NCBI GenBank assembly: GCA_000002445.1
Contig: CM000207.1
Location: forward strand, 2,528,001 to 2,592,000
Source: Trypanosoma brucei
Taxonomy: Eukaryota
DNA: 64,000 bases
Reading direction: 5' to 3'
Under the pieces are notes generated by a model. The model searched no databases, had not been told where the DNA came from, and saw nothing but the letters and a program-made list of their open reading frames with translations. Below, in pieces: positions 1 through 59,030 of the stretch. Both the position numbers and the translations under genes were made by a program. Every line of letters starts with the position of its first letter. The first letter of the stretch is position 1.

Positions 1-1275
1 TACACGATGATGCAGCGGCAGGCAAGTGCAGGTATGGTAAAGGCGGCGACGACCGGCATACTCGGCGGGCAGATTATAGAGGCAATGAATTTGCTAGAAC
101 AGCTGAGGGCAAGCACAGCGACAATCAATGGAGCGTGCTTAACTCAAACAGCGAGTGCAAAGGCGGACGCTCAACTTAGCCGTGAGCTAGCAGGCTGCAG
201 CAGCACCGACATACCGACCTCAAGCGAACTAGACTCGACAAACAGATTCGATAGCACAGGTCTACAAGGGGCACTAGCATCCGGCAGCGCGACAGGAAAC
301 GGTGGTTGCGACTTCACCAAATGCAATTTTATAGCACACCCACCATCAGACATAAAGTTTTTCGACGACCAAGAAATGGCAAACCAACTGAGCATAGTGG
401 CCGGGCTGCTTTCAACGAGCTCTGGCGGTGCGACGTTTAACAACCCAGGAAGTTTAAAACACGATACGGCAGACTCACCAACGATGCCTGCAGTACTAAC
501 AGCGATCAAAGCAGCCTACAACTACGAAGAAACAGCATTGAAAGAAACAGTTGGCCCCTTTAAGAACCTATATGCCATGCTAGCAGCCGAGGGGAGATTT
601 TCCCACGTAAACTTCGCAATAAACGGCAGATTCAAAGCACCAGAAGCAGGATCATAACAACAGAACCTAAAACAGCAAATAACAGCAATACTCAGCACCG
701 ATGCGGGCAAATTAAAAACCGAGTTCGTCGAAAAATTATTAGCGGAGGACTTAGACTTTCCACCGGAACTTCAACTAGAAGTAAAAAAGATAAACCAGAT
801 ACCAACTGACAGGCTCCATGAAGTCGCAACATTTTTACTTCAGCGACGCGGTTCTCAGGTTCCAGAAGCAAAACCATGTTCAGACCACAATCCACTGCCA
901 AACCTGCCAAATTCGAAAACAGACACAACTTGCGAAAAGAAAGGGGTAGATAACTGCAAACCCCCATGCAAATTGGTTGAAGATAAAGGTGGCAAAAAGA
1001 AGTGCACATGGGATAAGGATGAAGTACCGAAACATGCAGCAGGAAATCAAGCAGGAACAGGAGAGACAAGTGCCTGGGTAGATTGCAGTAAACGTGACAC
1101 ACTAGAGAAATGTAAGAAGGCCAAAAAAGGCCAAACCACCAAAGTTTGCGGATGTAAGGGAGAAAATAGTGACGGAACTAACAAATCCGGTTACAAATTC
1201 AGCTCTTCCAGTTTTCTTGTTAATAAGAAGTTTGCTCTGAGTAAGGCTACTTTGATGAGTTTCGTGGTATTCTAA
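1..1275 (+). pseudogene. VSG, 5'-partial at the window edge. A single reading frame from 7 to 1275 is interrupted by one in-frame TAA at 655-657. The C-terminus ...GYKFSSSSFLVNKKFALSKATLMSFVVF* is a canonical GPI-anchor signal.
   Basis: ORFs 7..657 and 973..1275 lie in the same frame, and translating 658-972 by hand in that frame gives no other stop. The hallmark VSG C-terminal motif FLVNKKFALS and a Cys-rich C-terminal domain (CKWDKDE, CGCKGENS) are present. There is no signal peptide at M7, so the gene starts upstream of the window. Confidence 0.8.
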
Positions 1276-1314
1276 ATGTTTTCTATTTTATGTGTGAAGA
1301 GATTTGCTAAAATT

Positions 1315-1330
1315 TGCAATATTTTAACAC
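1315..1330 (+). promoter_or_regulatory. VSG 3'UTR conserved 16-mer variant (tgcaatattttaacac)
   Basis: It matches the T. brucei VSG 3'UTR 16-mer TGATATATTTTAACAC and lies about 40 nt after the VSG stop. Confidence 0.7.
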
Positions 1331-1459
1331 TTTGTGATGAAACTCTGCAAATTAGTCAAATGTGTATGATGGTGGCCCATAGGTAAAACTTATTAGTAAC
1401 ACAGTGTTAAAAATAATTGATATTGTAAAATGTATTCTAGTTCAATTTATTTTGATTAT

Positions 1460-1560
1460 ATAATAATAATAATTATTATTATTATAACAAATAAAAATAA
1501 ATAGTAATAATAAGATGAAAGTGTTGTAAGTGTGGATATACGAATAGTATAATAAGAGTG
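1460..1560 (+). repeat. 70-bp repeat block: a TAA/ATAATA run followed by the core gaaagtgttgtaagtgtggatatacgaatagtataataagag
   Basis: It matches the 70-bp repeat consensus found upstream of T. brucei VSG cassettes (GAGTGTTGTGAGTGTGTG..ATACGAATATTATAATAAGAG). Confidence 0.8.
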
Positions 1561-2584
1561 GTGGTGAAGGAATAATGGAGGTGTAAAAGAAGAGTACTTA
1601 AAATAATGGAAAGGGTGAAGTGGGTATAAGTGACTGAATGGAAGTGGATAAGAGGAAGTGGTACAGCTCGTAGGGGGAACATTATTAGAGGAGACACAGA
1701 GAAGAAAATATAATGTACACAGTGATAAACAGTAACATGGCGACGTGCTACATTTTACAAAGGAAAATGATGGAAGGAACAATAAGGGAGAAAGAGAATA
1801 TAGTCTGAAGGAAAAAACTAAGTCAGTGCATGATATGCAGAAGCAGCGAGAGAATACAAAAAAGAAAAGAATATGTAGAATGAGATAAGAGGCCCCGCGA
1901 CAACGAAGCTGAGCACAGGCAAAAAGATTGGAGAGGAGATTGCACCCTGTATTTCACTCAAAGATGCATCGATGTATTAGCTTTTATGGTGAAGACTGTG
2001 TTTTTTAAACAAATAGCGGATACTTATAACCAACAGTGAATAAAAAGCAGTGGAAGTAGAAGATGGAAGGGATTAAGTATGTGTGACGTAACGCCAAAGT
2101 TTTTTCTCATTAGATATAATAATTTTGGCCGACTTATGTGATAAACAATATAATATTATATGGAAGAAAAATTTGAAACGAGGACTATCATTGAATTGCC
2201 GTGGACACCAAATAAAGAATAAATGTGCTGAGACTTCTCGATGTAGCGCATACATCAATATTTAAAAGATATATATATATACATTACCGAAATTTCCAAA
2301 TTATACTCCTCCAACCACTTAGAGGCGCAAAGACAGCCCGTTAAAGCGATTTAAAGTATACATAGTTTATTTAAAAATACACACGGCCGCGGTATTGATA
2401 GGGAGAAACAAGTAAACTCAAAAAGAAAAAGTGTATTCAGGACCGCAATTACAGAATAACAGATAACGACCGACACTTAAGCTTTAATACAGTGGAAAAC
2501 GTCGAGCCCATGCGCACGACAAAGCGTATATGACATAACTTCATTATGGATGAATCTACAAAAGAGGAGTTGGGCACCATTAGC

Positions 2585-2631
2585 AGCATGTGGAGACCAC
2601 AAATAATAGATACATATAAATAAATAAATAA

Positions 2632-56431: not shown

Positions 56432-56514
56432 AGAGTGTTGCACAGTCTTATAAAATTTATGAGCATTTACTATTTTTAGAAAAATTTCAAAAATTGCTAA
56501 ATCTTGCTATAATT

Positions 56515-56530
56515 TGATATATTTTAACTC
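56515..56530 (+). promoter_or_regulatory. VSG 3'UTR 16-mer variant (tgatatattttaactc)
   Basis: Motif match. Confidence 0.7.
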
Positions 56531-56709
56531 TTTTTGATGAGAATATGCAATTCAGTGAAATTTCGAGAATTTTAAAATGTATATATATATTAGGAAAATT
56601 TGTACGAAAGGAGCACATAGGGGTAACGTAATATAGTGATAGGGTACGAAATTTTTACTATTTTAAAATTATCTGTATTTTTTATTTTTTATGAATTTTA
56701 GGGGTTATA

Positions 56710-56805
56710 GTCGTGATAATAATAACAAAACAAAAACAATCATAGTAATATGGTAATTTTAATAATTATTATGGAATTGTGTTTTGGGTGTGTATCACTA
56801 TTGTG
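56710..56805 (+). repeat. Degenerate 70-bp repeat
   Basis: gtgataataataacaaaacaaaaacaatcatagtaatatggtaattttaataattattatggaattgtgttttgggtgtgtatcactattgtggag. Confidence 0.5.
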
Positions 56806-57650
56806 GAGACAGTGATTGAGAAGCAGGAGTAGCAGGTACTATGTGGGTAAAAGAAGCGGTTAAATTTTATTTGAACACTACTAGACGTATACAAAAAGTT
56901 GCAGATATTAACTCTGGATTAGCAGGAGCAGAAAAATTATCCACAGCTGAACGGAAGAGTAAACACTGATAAATTTATGAAGGTAATTAAGCTGCTTGAT
57001 TGTATCCGCCATACCTCAGTGGCTTTCGAGAAGAAGCCTAGTAGTGGCGCAGATTTAGCGACAAGCTTTTAATTGTAACCAAACATATGTAAGGAAAACA
57101 ACTCAACAATTAACTGAGCTGATTCTCAGAGACATGATTCTTTACCACTCATAGTTGCCAAATGCTGATGCATTCGCCATGACCAAAGGGGGAAAAAAGC
57201 TCGACATGCTTATGGCGATAAAGATGTAATGAAGCCACATTCAATAGGGAGGTATAGAATGACCAGCCTATTGTGGTGATTGATTTTTGAACTAATGGAT
57301 AAAATTTATAGTCACACTCCCAAAAAGGTTAGTTGAAGTAATCTACTTACTAATCATAGAAGGATGTATGTTAAGTATTCTAGTTACTAAAGGCTTTAAA
57401 ATAAATAACCCAACGGCACCAAAGAAAACAGTGGACTATCAGCAGGAAATAAACCACTCAACAAACACCAACGACTCAGGGTGACCAGTGTGCACTACCA
57501 CAGGACAGGCATTCGCATGACTAATATTGCTGCTGCGAAATTTGCAAAGAAGCGACACAATAGTGGCAACTAAGTCACGCAGTTTAACTTTCAAAAATAC
57601 ACCCCCTGACATGACCATAAGCAATAGAACAAGGCAAGAAAGAACCATAC

Positions 57651-59030
57651 ATGCTTAATAAAGGTCGCTACCTCCTTATCTATCTTTTGGCCGCTGTGTC
57701 GTTGGCCAACTCCGCAAACGCAGCAGCAGGAGACGCCATAAAGAAGCAATACTGGACGAGCTTCTGCGATGTCGCAGTTGAAGCTGAGACAATACCGTCT
57801 CAAGCGATAACCAGCCTAGAGGCGGCGGCAACGGAGGGCCTAAACAAGTTCAAATTCCTACTAAAGGCGCAAATATACGCCGAAGGAAACTTGACAAGGC
57901 CGACGGCTCCCGAAGAAAGAATGCTATGGACGTTTGGCGCGCATGAAACAGAAAAGGCGTTCAATTACTATACCAGCGCTGCTCCAGGCCAGATAATAAC
58001 GGCGGTTAGGGATGCAGGACGACTGCAAGGAGCAATAGGTGAATGGATAAACCTGATGGCAGAAGGTTCAGACGGCACAGACGGATGTCTCAGCAACAAC
58101 GACGGTGGTGGCAACCCAATAAGCGGGAGAAACGCGCTGACTGGAGACATGTAAAAATGTAAACTGAAATGGGAACCGGTACACAAAGGACAGGTACAAG
58201 GTACTTTGCTTGGACCAACAGGCCTTACGGGTAGTTTCTCAACGGGCGTAGCCCACGGAAGCTTAGTCAACGGAAACAAAAAATGCGGCATAAATTCGCC
58301 AAACACAGGCTTCCTGTTAAACGACGCGGATACAAGCGGCAGCGGCAACGGCGCAAATGTAGCGGGCCACACTCCAAAGATGGCTGCTGGACTACTAACC
58401 ATAGACAACACAGGCCTAATAATCGAGGTGTTAGCTGACACAGAAACTAAGCAGGCAACACACCCTTACCTGCATTACGCAGTAAAAGCCAAAACGAACG
58501 TTCAGCAGATGTTCAACTCCGATATGCCGCAAACTTTAGAGACAGCAAAGACATCTGAGCAACTAAAGCGGGCAGCAAGAAGGCAACTACTAGGCAAAAA
58601 AGACAGTGAAACTTCCGAAGACAACCAGATACCCGACAAAATCAAAAGTGTATTCACGACCAACGACAAATACCTAGCGATCCTACACAAAAACATAGAC
58701 GCCATGCCTACACCCAAAGAGCTGACAGATGATAAGCAGGAAACCACCCTAGGCGAAATCAACGACGTGGACCTCCTAATTCGTCTGTATTTTTACTATG
58801 TGGATGCCAACAAGAGAAAACTGCAAAACACATTAGACGAGCTACGAAATGTAAATAAAAAGCAAGAACCAAAATCAGCAGAAGACAAGGAAAAAGAGTG
58901 CAATACCAAAGGCAATGATAAGCAAGAAGAGTGTGAAAAACTAGAGAGTCAAGGGTGTATTTTTAACAAGGAGGGCAAGAAGTGGAAAAAGTGCACATTG
59001 AGCGAGGAAGGCAAAAAAGGAAGGAGCTAA
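57651..59030 (+). pseudogene. VSG pseudogene with an internal frameshift near 58155-58205. The C-terminus is truncated, with no GPI signal, by the ingi C 3' end.
   Basis: The signal peptide is LLIYLLAAVSLANSANA. VSG-like ORFs 57651..58154 and 58206..59030 end ...CIFNKEGKKWKKCTLSEEGKKGRS*. The ingi 3' terminus begins at about 59062. Confidence 0.7.

What the first reader, a model, noticed from the sequence alone, without database searches (positions are those of the whole stretch)
1..59030. Silent VSG array with 16 tandem cassettes: 3 intact genes, 13 pseudogenes or fragments, all on one strand
Each 3-5 kb unit has the same order: 70-bp repeat, spacer, VSG, then the 16-mer 3'UTR. This is the architecture of the T. 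brucei subtelomeric antigen archive. Only 4076-5620, 21081-22598 and 41286-42797 have uninterrupted ORFs with both a signal peptide and a GPI signal. Several others are one mutation away from intact: a single in-frame TAA at 655-657 in the first VSG, and the only in-frame stop seen in the 52727 VSG is the TAG at 53716, its C-terminal domain lying in another frame. Such near-intact genes are the expected substrates for segmental (mosaic) gene conversion.
Basis: partly seen in the sequence, partly recalled or inferred. Interest (0 to 1): 0.55.

Follow-up and report, generated by a model that had tools for sequence, protein, structure and literature searches.

The report
Known silent VSG array, T. 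brucei
This is an already sequenced and annotated stretch of the Trypanosoma brucei TREU927 reference genome: an ordinary silent array of 16 coat-protein (VSG) genes, most of them broken, with jumping elements (ingi) inserted among them.

Summary
Window 1-59062 carries 16 VSG-derived units, all on the + strand. The three uninterrupted ORFs (4076-5620, 21081-22598, 41286-42797) are letter-for-letter the consecutive GenBank proteins EAN77411, EAN77412 and EAN77413 of T. brucei brucei TREU927.

Corrections:
- Two of the three 'intact' genes are annotated 'VSG, atypical'; only 41286-42797 is annotated as a plain VSG.
- The unit order '70-bp repeat, spacer, VSG, 16-mer' is common but not universal. 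The 16-mer is recognisable in 12-13 units and absent from three. The 70-bp repeat is clear before 11 units, degenerate before three and absent before two.
Two lie on the minus strand, and three of the four truncate a VSG.
- N-terminal domains within the window are at most 29% identical, so any mosaic partners must lie elsewhere in the genome.

This architecture and its pseudogene proportions were published with the 2005 genome. The finding is correct but already known. The one small curiosity is that two units (VSGs 41286 and 52727) have a different 3' flank containing telomere-like hexamers.

The parts
1..1330 (+). U1: A-type VSG pseudogene. Its 5' end lies off the window. One in-frame TAA at 655-657; C-terminal domain and GPI-type tail end at 1272; 16-mer at 1315-1330 (2 mismatches).
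   Evidence: Pfam PF00913 E=1.7e-10; PF10659 E=1.4e-11
1502..1562 (+). 70-bp repeat ahead of U2
   Evidence: nhmmer E=2.7e-07
2842..3909 (+). UDP-Gal/UDP-GlcNAc-dependent glycosyltransferase pseudogene with an in-frame TGA at 3013-3015. It lies between the 70-bp repeat and the U2 VSG. GenBank annotates only a 203-aa CDS from 3301.
   Evidence: 70% identity to a 345-aa TREU927 glycosyltransferase; 100% to the 203-aa annotated protein
4076..5709 (+). U2: intact B-type VSG ORF 4076-5620 (EAN77411, annotated 'VSG, atypical'). Its C-terminus runs 8 residues (RYFIILAF) past the usual end. 16-mer at 5694-5709 (3 mismatches).
   Evidence: VSG_B E=1.3e-67, Trypan_glycop_C E=1.4e-23
5894..6016 (+). 70-bp repeat ahead of U3
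   Evidence: nhmmer E=4.8e-19
9046..10725 (+). U3: full-length B-type VSG pseudogene with several in-frame stops and at least two frameshifts. GPI-type tail ends at 10722. No 16-mer: the 3'UTR is cut to about 30 nt by the next 70-bp repeat.
   Evidence: VSG_B E=1e-51 and Trypan_glycop_C E=3.3e-11 on stitched frames
10758..10815 (+). 70-bp repeat ahead of U4
   Evidence: nhmmer E=4.2e-08
11368..16627 (-). Full-length ingi non-LTR retrotransposon (5.26 kb) with an open 1526-aa ORF (16401-11821). Its two flanks are not contiguous VSG-cassette sequence, and no target-site duplication is visible.
   Evidence: RVT_1 E=3.8e-43, endonuclease, RNase H and zinc fingers; self-BLAST; junctions
16628..17741 (+). 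U4: 3' part of an A-type VSG, much degraded, starting at the ingi boundary. 16-mer at 17726-17741 (3 mismatches).
   Evidence: PF00913 E=5.7e-4, below the Pfam cut-off; 78% nt identity of 17364-17459 to the U1 C-terminal region
17915..18041 (+). Two 70-bp repeats ahead of U5
   Evidence: nhmmer E=4e-4 and 2.4e-07
21081..22707 (+). U5: intact VSG ORF 21081-22598 (EAN77412, annotated 'VSG, atypical'; at least 90% identical to Lister 427 VSG 463). Class-A N-domain missed by Pfam. 16-mer at 22692-22707 (2 mismatches).
   Evidence: family profile hits PDB VSG397 E=1.2e-28 and VSGsur E=1.9e-15
22851..22986 (+). 70-bp repeats ahead of U6
   Evidence: nhmmer E=4.2e-18
24729..26275 (+). U6: B-type VSG pseudogene. 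The N-domain ORF runs to 25976, the C-terminus is out of frame and degraded, and a degenerate 16-mer lies at 26260-26275.
   Evidence: VSG_B E=9.8e-45
26560..26631 (+). 70-bp repeat ahead of U7
   Evidence: nhmmer E=1.6e-10
28215..29701 (+). U7: full-length VSG pseudogene with several in-frame stops and one frameshift. It has a signal-peptide-like start and a GPI-type tail ending at 29605. 16-mer at 29686-29701. The upper N-domain matches no model.
   Evidence: PDB VSGsur E=1.5e-5 and MITat1.2 E=9e-4 on the C-terminal third
29893..29941 (+). Degenerate 70-bp repeat ahead of U8
   Evidence: nhmmer E=0.042, at the usual ~190 nt after the previous 16-mer
31334..31517 (+). U8: first ~60 codons of a B-type VSG, cut off by an ingi element
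   Evidence: VSG_B E=5.2e-10, profile positions 5-60
31518..36639 (+). ingi retrotransposon with its ORF broken into three pieces, 98% identical to the copy at 11368-16627. It lacks the last ~137 nt and is joined to a 70-bp repeat within a shared TTATAGAG-GTGT stretch.
36614..36777 (+). Two 70-bp repeats ahead of U9
   Evidence: nhmmer E=1.6e-15 and 2.4e-14
37682..39125 (+). U9: class-A VSG with a single frameshift near 38700. Its C-terminal domain is 78% nt identical to that of U5. Perfect 16-mer at 39110-39125.
   Evidence: tblastn to VSG 1125.4968 in two frames; PDB MITat1.13 E=5.6e-4
39304..39531 (+). Three tandem 70-bp repeats ahead of U10
   Evidence: TRF period 80, 3 copies; nhmmer E down to 1e-19
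41286..42849 (+). U10: intact canonical B-type VSG ORF 41286-42797 (EAN77413, annotated 'VSG'; at least 90% identical to Lister 427 VSG 475). 16-mer at 42834-42849 (1 mismatch), followed by CTAAAAT.
   Evidence: VSG_B E=4.2e-78, Trypan_glycop_C E=2e-24; PDB VSG3 6elc E=5.8e-48
43195..43234 (+). TTAGGG-like hexamers plus the 18-mer TAGGGTTAATTTTCCTCT, inside a T-rich tract about 400 nt after the U10 stop codon
43720..44190 (+). U11: VSG C-terminal-domain fragment only, with its stop codon lost. 16-mer at 44165-44180. No 70-bp repeat upstream.
   Evidence: Trypan_glycop_C E=7.5e-15
44351..44411 (+). 70-bp repeat ahead of U12
   Evidence: nhmmer E=3.9e-08
46178..47831 (+). U12: A-type VSG pseudogene with an in-frame stop at 47222 and later frameshifts. 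16-mer at 47816-47831.
   Evidence: PF00913 E=1.6e-55; PF10659 E=4e-08
48019..48076 (+). Degenerate 70-bp repeat ahead of U13
   Evidence: nhmmer E=0.0025
49063..50853 (+). U13: A-type VSG pseudogene with an in-frame TAA at 50329 and a degraded C-terminus. 16-mer at 50838-50853.
   Evidence: PF00913 E=3.1e-53
51026..51093 (+). 70-bp repeat ahead of U14
   Evidence: nhmmer E=3.3e-10
52727..54209 (+). U14: class-A VSG with one frameshift near 53690-53716. The C-terminal domain and GPI-type tail are in frame 1 and end at 54147. Perfect 16-mer at 54194-54209, followed by CTAAAAT.
   Evidence: tblastn to a PF00913-bearing VSG, E=6.7e-13; PDB MITat1.21 E=3.5e-4
54360..54399 (+). Second copy of the TTAGGG-like hexamers plus TAGGGTTAATTTTCCTCT, about 210 nt after the U14 stop codon
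55055..56530 (+). U15: B-type VSG lacking about the first 95 profile positions (no signal peptide). C-terminal domain and tail are intact. 16-mer at 56515-56530. No 70-bp repeat upstream.
   Evidence: VSG_B E=5.8e-34, profile 95-351; Trypan_glycop_C E=1.8e-14
57651..59062 (+). U16: A-type VSG with an in-frame TAA at 58152. Its 3' end is cut off by an ingi fragment, so it has no 16-mer.
   Evidence: PF00913 E=1.8e-29 and 1.3e-30
59063..60134 (-). 3'-terminal 1.07 kb of an ingi element, abutting the 5' end of the next ingi
   Evidence: 95.8% identity to 11368-12431
60134..64000 (+). ingi element running off the window, with its ORF open for 1223 aa
   Evidence: 97.4% identity to 31518-35385

Best explanation
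The window is part of a silent tandem VSG array of the Trypanosoma brucei brucei TREU927 reference genome, on a 3.06-Mb chromosome record.

Each cassette normally consists of one to three 70-bp repeats, a 1-3 kb spacer, a VSG coding region, a short 3'UTR with the 16-mer, and about 175 nt leading to the next 70-bp repeat.

None of the following steps was tested here; all are taken from the literature.
- These copies are not expressed in place. They act as templates.
- An intact copy can be duplicated into a telomeric expression site by gene conversion. That conversion uses the 70-bp repeats upstream and the conserved 3' coding/UTR region downstream as homology.
- Damaged copies can contribute only segments, giving mosaic VSGs.
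- Once a copy is expressed, the 16-mer stabilises the VSG mRNA.

The array has been reshaped by ingi retrotransposons, which truncate three of the VSGs. It has also decayed through point mutations and frameshifts.
For: - Identity: the three ORFs match TREU927 VSG proteins EAN77411-13 exactly, on a 3,057,547-bp record.
- Domains: VSG N- and C-domain models or solved-VSG matches cover all 16 units.
- 16-mer: 10 matches against 0.1 expected, all on the + strand. Its sequence and its role in mRNA stability and m6A are given in 10.1101/2020.01.30.925776 and PMC5698767.
- 70-bp repeats: short runs of 1-3 copies, + strand only. Their role in selecting archive VSGs is described in PMC4858185.
- Spacing: a regular ~170-190 nt from each 16-mer to the next 70-bp repeat.
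- Composition: the proportions of intact, atypical, pseudogene and fragment units match the published archive figures (PMC1934917; PMC3467770).
- ingi elements: identified by RT, endonuclease and RNase H domains and by 96-98% mutual identity.
Against: - Nothing in the sequence contradicts this reading.
- Silence, subtelomeric position and actual use as donors are not shown by any tool result here.
- Within the window no pair of N-domains exceeds 29% amino-acid identity, so this array by itself offers no obvious partners for mosaic formation.
- The N-domain of U7 matches no model, and that of U4 only below the Pfam cut-off.
Confidence: 0.95

Rival explanations
1. It is a telomeric bloodstream or metacyclic VSG expression site rather than a silent array.
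For: VSGs with 70-bp repeats and 16-mers also occur in expression sites. Two units, U10 and U14, have TTAGGG-like hexamers 400 and 210 nt after their stop codons. That is within the 200-1590 nt VSG-to-telomere distance reported for expression sites (PMC2567434).
Against: - There are sixteen VSGs in tandem.
- The 70-bp runs are only 1-3 copies long, against the 0.2-7.1 kb tracts reported for expression sites.
- No ESAG ORFs were found among ORFs of at least 150 aa. The only non-VSG, non-ingi gene is a glycosyltransferase pseudogene.
- There is no true telomere tract. The best match to (TTAGGG)5 is 20 of 30 bases, no better than the shuffled sequence.
Confidence: 0.02
2. Some of the odd junctions are assembly errors caused by near-identical 5-kb ingi repeats, not real rearrangements. 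These junctions are the VSG halves abutting ingi elements without target-site duplications, and the ingi fragment abutting another ingi.
For: - The ingi copies are 96-98% identical over 1-5 kb, which is a classic cause of mis-joins.
- ingi 11368-16627 has no matching flanks.
- On both sides of two elements the cassette sequence is discontinuous.
Against: - The record is a finished reference chromosome.
- The junction at 36624-36639 lies in a short stretch shared by the ingi tail and the 70-bp repeat. This looks like a microhomology-mediated deletion rather than a mis-join.
- Each ingi copy carries its own substitutions.
Confidence: 0.07
3. The genes are chromosome-internal VSG-related (non-variant) genes, not archive VSGs.
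For: Four N-domains escape both Pfam VSG models, and two intact genes are annotated 'atypical'.
Against: - Those N-domains match solved class-A VSGs: VSG397, VSGsur, MITat1.13 and MITat1.21.
- They also match catalogued VSGs of the Lister 427 and EATRO1125 sets.
- They carry 70-bp repeats, 16-mers and GPI-type tails, and most are pseudogenes.
Confidence: 0.02

Closest known systems
Silent subtelomeric VSG arrays of T. brucei TREU927 (genome paper of 2005; archive analysis by Marcello and Barry 2007, cited in PMC3467770 and PMC1934917)
   Same: It is this very sequence, with exact protein matches. It shares the cassette order, single-strand orientation, short 70-bp runs, 3'UTR 16-mer and a majority of pseudogenes and fragments.
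   Different: Nothing of substance. The detail recorded here is that two of the 16 units carry a different 3' flank and that ingi elements truncate three units.
Bloodstream VSG expression sites (Hertz-Fowler et al. 2008, PMC2567434)
   Same: A VSG preceded by 70-bp repeats and followed by a 16-mer-bearing 3'UTR. U10 and U14 have hexamers at a distance typical of the VSG-to-telomere gap.
   Different: No promoter, ESAGs, long 70-bp tract or telomere tract. There are many VSGs in tandem instead of one terminal gene.
ingi/RIME non-LTR retrotransposons of T. brucei
   Same: A 5.26-kb element with endonuclease, reverse transcriptase, RNase H and C2H2 zinc-finger regions in one long ORF, and an A-rich 3' end.
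   Different: One copy lacks its last ~137 nt, and one is only a 1.07-kb 3' fragment abutting another copy head-on.

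Membership tests
T. brucei VSG gene (archive cassette) | N-terminal domain of VSG type A or B | tested here: met
   - B type: U2, U3, U6, U8, U10, U15 (PF13206).
- A type by Pfam PF00913: U1, U12, U13, U16; U4 only weakly, below the cut-off.
- Class A by solved structures or homologues: U5, U9, U14.
- U7 upper N-domain is unmatched.
- U11 has no N-domain; it is a C-terminal fragment.
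T. brucei VSG gene (archive cassette) | Cysteine-rich C-terminal domain ending in a hydrophobic GPI-addition signal | tested here: met
   PF10659 hits in U1, U2, U3, U10, U11, U12 (partial) and U15. GPI-type tails can be read directly in U1, U2, U3, U5, U7, U9, U10, U11, U14 and U15. No GPI predictor was available, so the signals are judged by eye against the known ...FALS..AAF..LLF and ...ISK.PLWLAFLLF patterns, recalled from my own knowledge.
T. brucei VSG gene (archive cassette) | 70-bp repeat(s) upstream | tested here: met
   Clear before U2-U7, U9, U10, U12 and U14, and at E=0.0025 before U13. Degenerate before U8 and U16. Absent before U11 and U15. U1's upstream region is off-window.
T. 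brucei VSG gene (archive cassette) | Conserved 16-mer TGATATATTTTAACAC in the 3'UTR | tested here: met
   12 copies at three or fewer mismatches plus one degenerate copy, all on the + strand and all just after a VSG C-terminus. 10 copies at two or fewer mismatches against 0.10 expected. Absent from U3, U8 and U16, whose 3' ends are truncated.
T. brucei VSG gene (archive cassette) | Identity with catalogued VSGs | tested here: met
   Exact matches to EAN77411-13 of TREU927. Cluster mates VSG 463 and VSG 475 of Lister 427 share at least 90% identity.
T. brucei VSG gene (archive cassette) | Transcriptionally silent in place; used as donor in gene conversion or mosaic formation | not testable with these tools
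   No expression or VSG-seq data are available. This rests on the literature (PMC3467770, PMC4858185).
T. brucei VSG gene (archive cassette) | Subtelomeric position on a megabase chromosome | not tested
   Only the record length (3,057,547 bp) is known. From memory this size fits chromosome 9. No trypanosome genome could be searched at DNA level.
ingi non-LTR retrotransposon | Single long ORF with AP-endonuclease, reverse transcriptase, RNase H and zinc fingers; about 5.2 kb; A-rich tail | tested here: met
   Pfam hits; 5260-bp extent and 96-98% identity between copies; A-run at the 3' end. Target-site duplication was not found for the 11368-16627 copy.
Trypanosomatid UDP-Gal/UDP-GlcNAc-dependent glycosyltransferase | Full-length homology to family members with an open reading frame | tested here: not met
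   Homology spans 2842-3909 (70% identity to a TREU927 paralogue), but an in-frame TGA at 3013-3015 interrupts it. It is a pseudogene or a truncated gene.

The most novel reading that the evidence does not exclude
Two units, the intact VSG at 41286 and the single-frameshift VSG at 52727, may be former telomere-proximal VSGs, or copies of such, that became embedded in the array.

Both have features the other 11 scorable units lack:
- an expressed-type 3'UTR (9-mer, then 16-mer followed by CTAAAAT);
- a T-rich flank with TTAGGG-like hexamers and an identical 18-mer, 400 and 210 nt after the stop codon;
- no 70-bp repeat downstream;
- a 5'-truncated VSG immediately following.

That would be a footprint of telomere-to-array transfer, in which the incoming tract overwrote the start of the next cassette. 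It would suggest one way the archive grows.
Probability: 0.3. Interest if true: 0.3.

Novelty: already known. Interest (0 to 1): 0.1.

Why it matters
VSG arrays are the store of coat-protein variants that lets African trypanosomes outrun antibody responses, so their structure matters for understanding chronic infection. This particular stretch is part of the published reference genome and behaves as the textbook describes, so confirming it adds no new biology. The practical value lies in the corrected inventory. It shows which copies are canonical, atypical, one lesion from intact, or truncated by ingi elements. It also flags two cassettes whose 3' flanks differ from the rest.

Tried and rejected
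- The look-up of encoding contigs on EAN77411 found no record, so no extra flanking DNA or chromosome coordinates could be obtained.
- Pfam missed the N-domains of four units. These were rescued with a homologue search, tblastn and PDB sequence searches. U7's upper N-domain stayed unmatched, and I ran no further search on it.
- The full 44-nt literature-style 70-bp core gave no hit at three or fewer mismatches. A profile built from the window's own copies was needed.
- Marcello and Barry 2007 is not held in the paper library, so the archive statistics are cited second-hand from PMC1934917 and PMC3467770.
- Telomere-likeness was tested by scoring 30-nt windows against (TTAGGG)n. The two loci are the best in the window (19-20 of 30), but shuffled sequence reaches 19-21. 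The hexamer resemblance alone is therefore not above chance. Only the shared 18-mer is unusual, with 2 matches against 0.1 expected.
- Literature searches for interstitial telomere repeats in VSG arrays found nothing relevant.
- Rfam and tRNA scans of both strands found nothing.
- Minus-strand ORFs overlapping VSGs (for example 9281-10168 and 41264-42178) were treated as antisense artefacts, because no VSG homology was found in minus frames.

Full report
**What the window is.** They are EAN77411/XP_827741, EAN77412/XP_827742 and EAN77413/XP_827743 of Trypanosoma brucei brucei TREU927, all on one record of 3,057,547 bp. The first two are named 'variant surface glycoprotein (VSG, atypical), putative' and the third 'VSG, putative'. 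The second and third share 90%-identity clusters with Lister 427 VSG 463 and VSG 475. The window is therefore a piece of the reference genome. The consecutive accession numbers show that its annotators also saw only these three complete VSG coding sequences here. From memory the record length fits chromosome 9; I could not test that.

**Checking the observation: VSG content.** Pfam finds VSG_B and/or Trypan_glycop (A-type) and Trypan_glycop_C in most units. Four N-domains escape Pfam (units at 21081, 28215, 37682, 52727).

- The 21081 protein has full-length homologues that are all catalogued VSGs of the Lister 427 and EATRO1125 sets. A profile of that family hits the solved structures of VSG397 (E=1.2e-28) and VSGsur.
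- The 37682 unit matches a VSGnome protein in two frames and MITat 1.13.
- The 52727 unit matches a PF00913-bearing VSG and MITat 1.21.
- The 28215 unit matches VSGsur and MITat 1.2 only over its C-terminal third. It does have a signal-peptide-like start, a GPI-type tail, a 16-mer, and a 70-bp repeat upstream.

All homology is in + frames.

| Class | Units (start coordinate) |
|---|---|
| Canonical intact gene (1) | 41286 |
| Intact but annotated atypical (2) | 4076, whose C-terminus runs eight residues past the usual end; 21081 |
| Full-length or apparently full-length pseudogenes (8) | 1, 9046, 24729, 28215, 37682, 46178, 49063, 52727 |
| Fragments (5) | 16628 (3' part), 31334 (first ~60 codons), 43720 (C-terminal domain only), 55055 (lacks ~95 N-terminal profile positions), 57651 (3' end missing) |

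Supporting calls are 13, 15 and 59. [quoted passage not shown]

**Specific coordinates.**

- TAA at 655-657 is the only stop in frame 1 from 1 to 1272, where a GPI-type tail ends. Because the gene starts off-window, its overall state is unknown.
- The 52727 ORF ends at TAG 53714-53716, and its C-terminal domain continues in frame 1 from 53638 to 54147. A single frameshift separates it from an intact gene.
- The unit at 37682 is likewise one frameshift (near 38700) from intact.

**Flanking motifs.** The 16-mer TGATATATTTTAACAC (sequence as given in 10.1101/2020.01.30.925776) has 10 matches at two or fewer mismatches against 0.10 expected, all on the + strand. Copies with three mismatches lie at 5694 and 17726. 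A degenerate copy at 26260 is confirmed by flank homology to 5679-5853. Three units have none:

- 9046-10725, whose 3'UTR is cut to about 30 nt by the next 70-bp repeat;
- the two units whose 3' ends are removed by ingi elements.

A profile of the window's own 70-bp repeats finds copies only on the + strand. They are clear ahead of 11 units (up to three tandem copies at 39304-39531), degenerate at 29893, 48019 and 56756, and absent ahead of 43720 and 55055. The distance from a 16-mer to the next 70-bp repeat is a regular ~170-190 nt, which supports the degenerate copies. So 'each unit has the same order' is the rule but not without exceptions.

- Self-comparison shows four ingi copies at 96-98% identity: a full-length element on the minus strand (11368-16627, open 1526-aa ORF with endonuclease, RT, RNase H and zinc fingers); a + strand copy with a broken ORF (31518-36639); a 1.07-kb minus-strand 3' fragment (59063-60134); and a + strand copy that starts exactly there and runs off the window.
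- Three VSGs end or begin at ingi boundaries.
- The flanks of the first two elements are not contiguous cassette sequence, and I saw no target-site duplication.
- The 31518 copy lacks its last ~137 nt and joins the next 70-bp repeat inside a shared TTATAGAG-GTGT stretch. I read this as a microhomology-mediated deletion, which is inference. Mis-assembly across near-identical repeats is the alternative.
- Between the 70-bp repeat at 1502 and the VSG at 4076 lies a UDP-Gal/UDP-GlcNAc-dependent glycosyltransferase pseudogene (2842-3909, in-frame TGA at 3013). GenBank annotates a 203-aa remnant of it.
- Rfam and tRNA scans were empty.

**How it works.** The anatomy is what is shown here; the function is taken from the literature. 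Array VSGs are silent templates. Duplicative gene conversion into the active telomeric expression site gives access to the archive, and the 70-bp repeats are needed to select archive donors (PMC4858185). Pseudogenes contribute segments to mosaic genes (PMC3467770). The 16-mer is essential for VSG mRNA stability and for m6A in the poly(A) tail once a copy is expressed (PMC5698767; 10.1101/2020.01.30.925776).

Two refinements follow from the data. First, the N-domains within this window are at most 29% identical at the amino-acid level, and none is detectably similar at the nucleotide level. Any mosaic partners of the near-intact pseudogenes must therefore lie elsewhere. Second, the only perfect 16-mers belong to the two single-frameshift pseudogenes, while the three intact genes have 1, 2 and 3 mismatches.

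**A small curiosity.** Eleven units continue after the 16-mer with TTT-TGATGA-A and reach the next 70-bp repeat. The units at 41286 and 52727 differ:

- a 9-mer-type UTR, with the 16-mer followed by CTAAAAT;
- about 45 nt of shared flank, then T-rich sequence;
- TTAGGG-like hexamers ending in an identical 18-mer (TAGGGTTAATTTTCCTCT; two matches against 0.1 expected) at 400 and 210 nt after the stop codon;
- no 70-bp repeat downstream, and a 5'-truncated VSG as the next unit.

The distances fall within the 200-1590 nt VSG-to-telomere gap of expression sites (PMC2567434). However, the hexamer resemblance alone is no better than in shuffled sequence. I found no paper on this, and no trypanosome genome could be searched. 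A telomeric origin for these two cassettes is therefore only a lead.

**Verdict.** It scores low on interest, and its novelty is 'already known'.

Noticed in passing
window 42798-43450 and 54148-54500: The VSGs at 41286 and 52727 share a 3' flank unlike the other 11 scorable units. It has the 16-mer followed by CTAAAAT, T-rich tracts, TTAGGG-like hexamers and an identical 18-mer TAGGGTTAATTTTCCTCT (43217 and 54382). There is no 70-bp repeat afterwards, and a 5'-truncated VSG follows. It may be a relic of telomere-proximal VSG flanks, but the hexamer resemblance alone is not above chance.
   Followed up: partly
window 36600-36640 versus 11505-11520: The ingi copy at 31518-36639 lacks its last ~137 nt. 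It is joined to a 70-bp repeat within a stretch shared by both sequences (TTATAGAG-GTGT). The rest of the interrupted VSG (31334-31517) is gone, which suggests a microhomology-mediated deletion.
   Followed up: partly
window 11368-16627 (minus strand): A full-length 5.26-kb ingi with an uninterrupted 1526-aa ORF, possibly a still-competent copy. This exact protein is not in the public collection, so the ORF is apparently not annotated as a CDS. No target-site duplication was seen, and the flanks are a cassette spacer on one side and mid-VSG on the other.
   Followed up: partly
window 59063-60134 and 60134-64000: A 1.07-kb 3' fragment of a minus-strand ingi abuts the exact 5' end of a plus-strand ingi. 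This is either an ingi inserted into an ingi or a head-to-head rearrangement. The far side lies beyond the window.
   Followed up: no
window 2842-3909: A glycosyltransferase (UDP-Gal/UDP-GlcNAc-dependent family) pseudogene with one in-frame TGA at 3013-3015 sits inside a VSG cassette between the 70-bp repeat and the VSG. GenBank annotates only a 203-aa CDS from 3301.
   Followed up: yes
window 39110-39125 and 54194-54209 versus 5694, 22692, 42834: The only perfect 16-mers belong to the two single-frameshift pseudogenes. The three intact genes carry 3, 2 and 1 mismatches respectively.
   Followed up: no
window 22361-22664 versus 38818-39120: The C-terminal domains and 3'UTRs of the VSGs at 21081 and 37682 are 78% identical at the nucleotide level, while their N-domains are not detectably similar in DNA. 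This fits independent assortment of N- and C-terminal domains.
   Followed up: no
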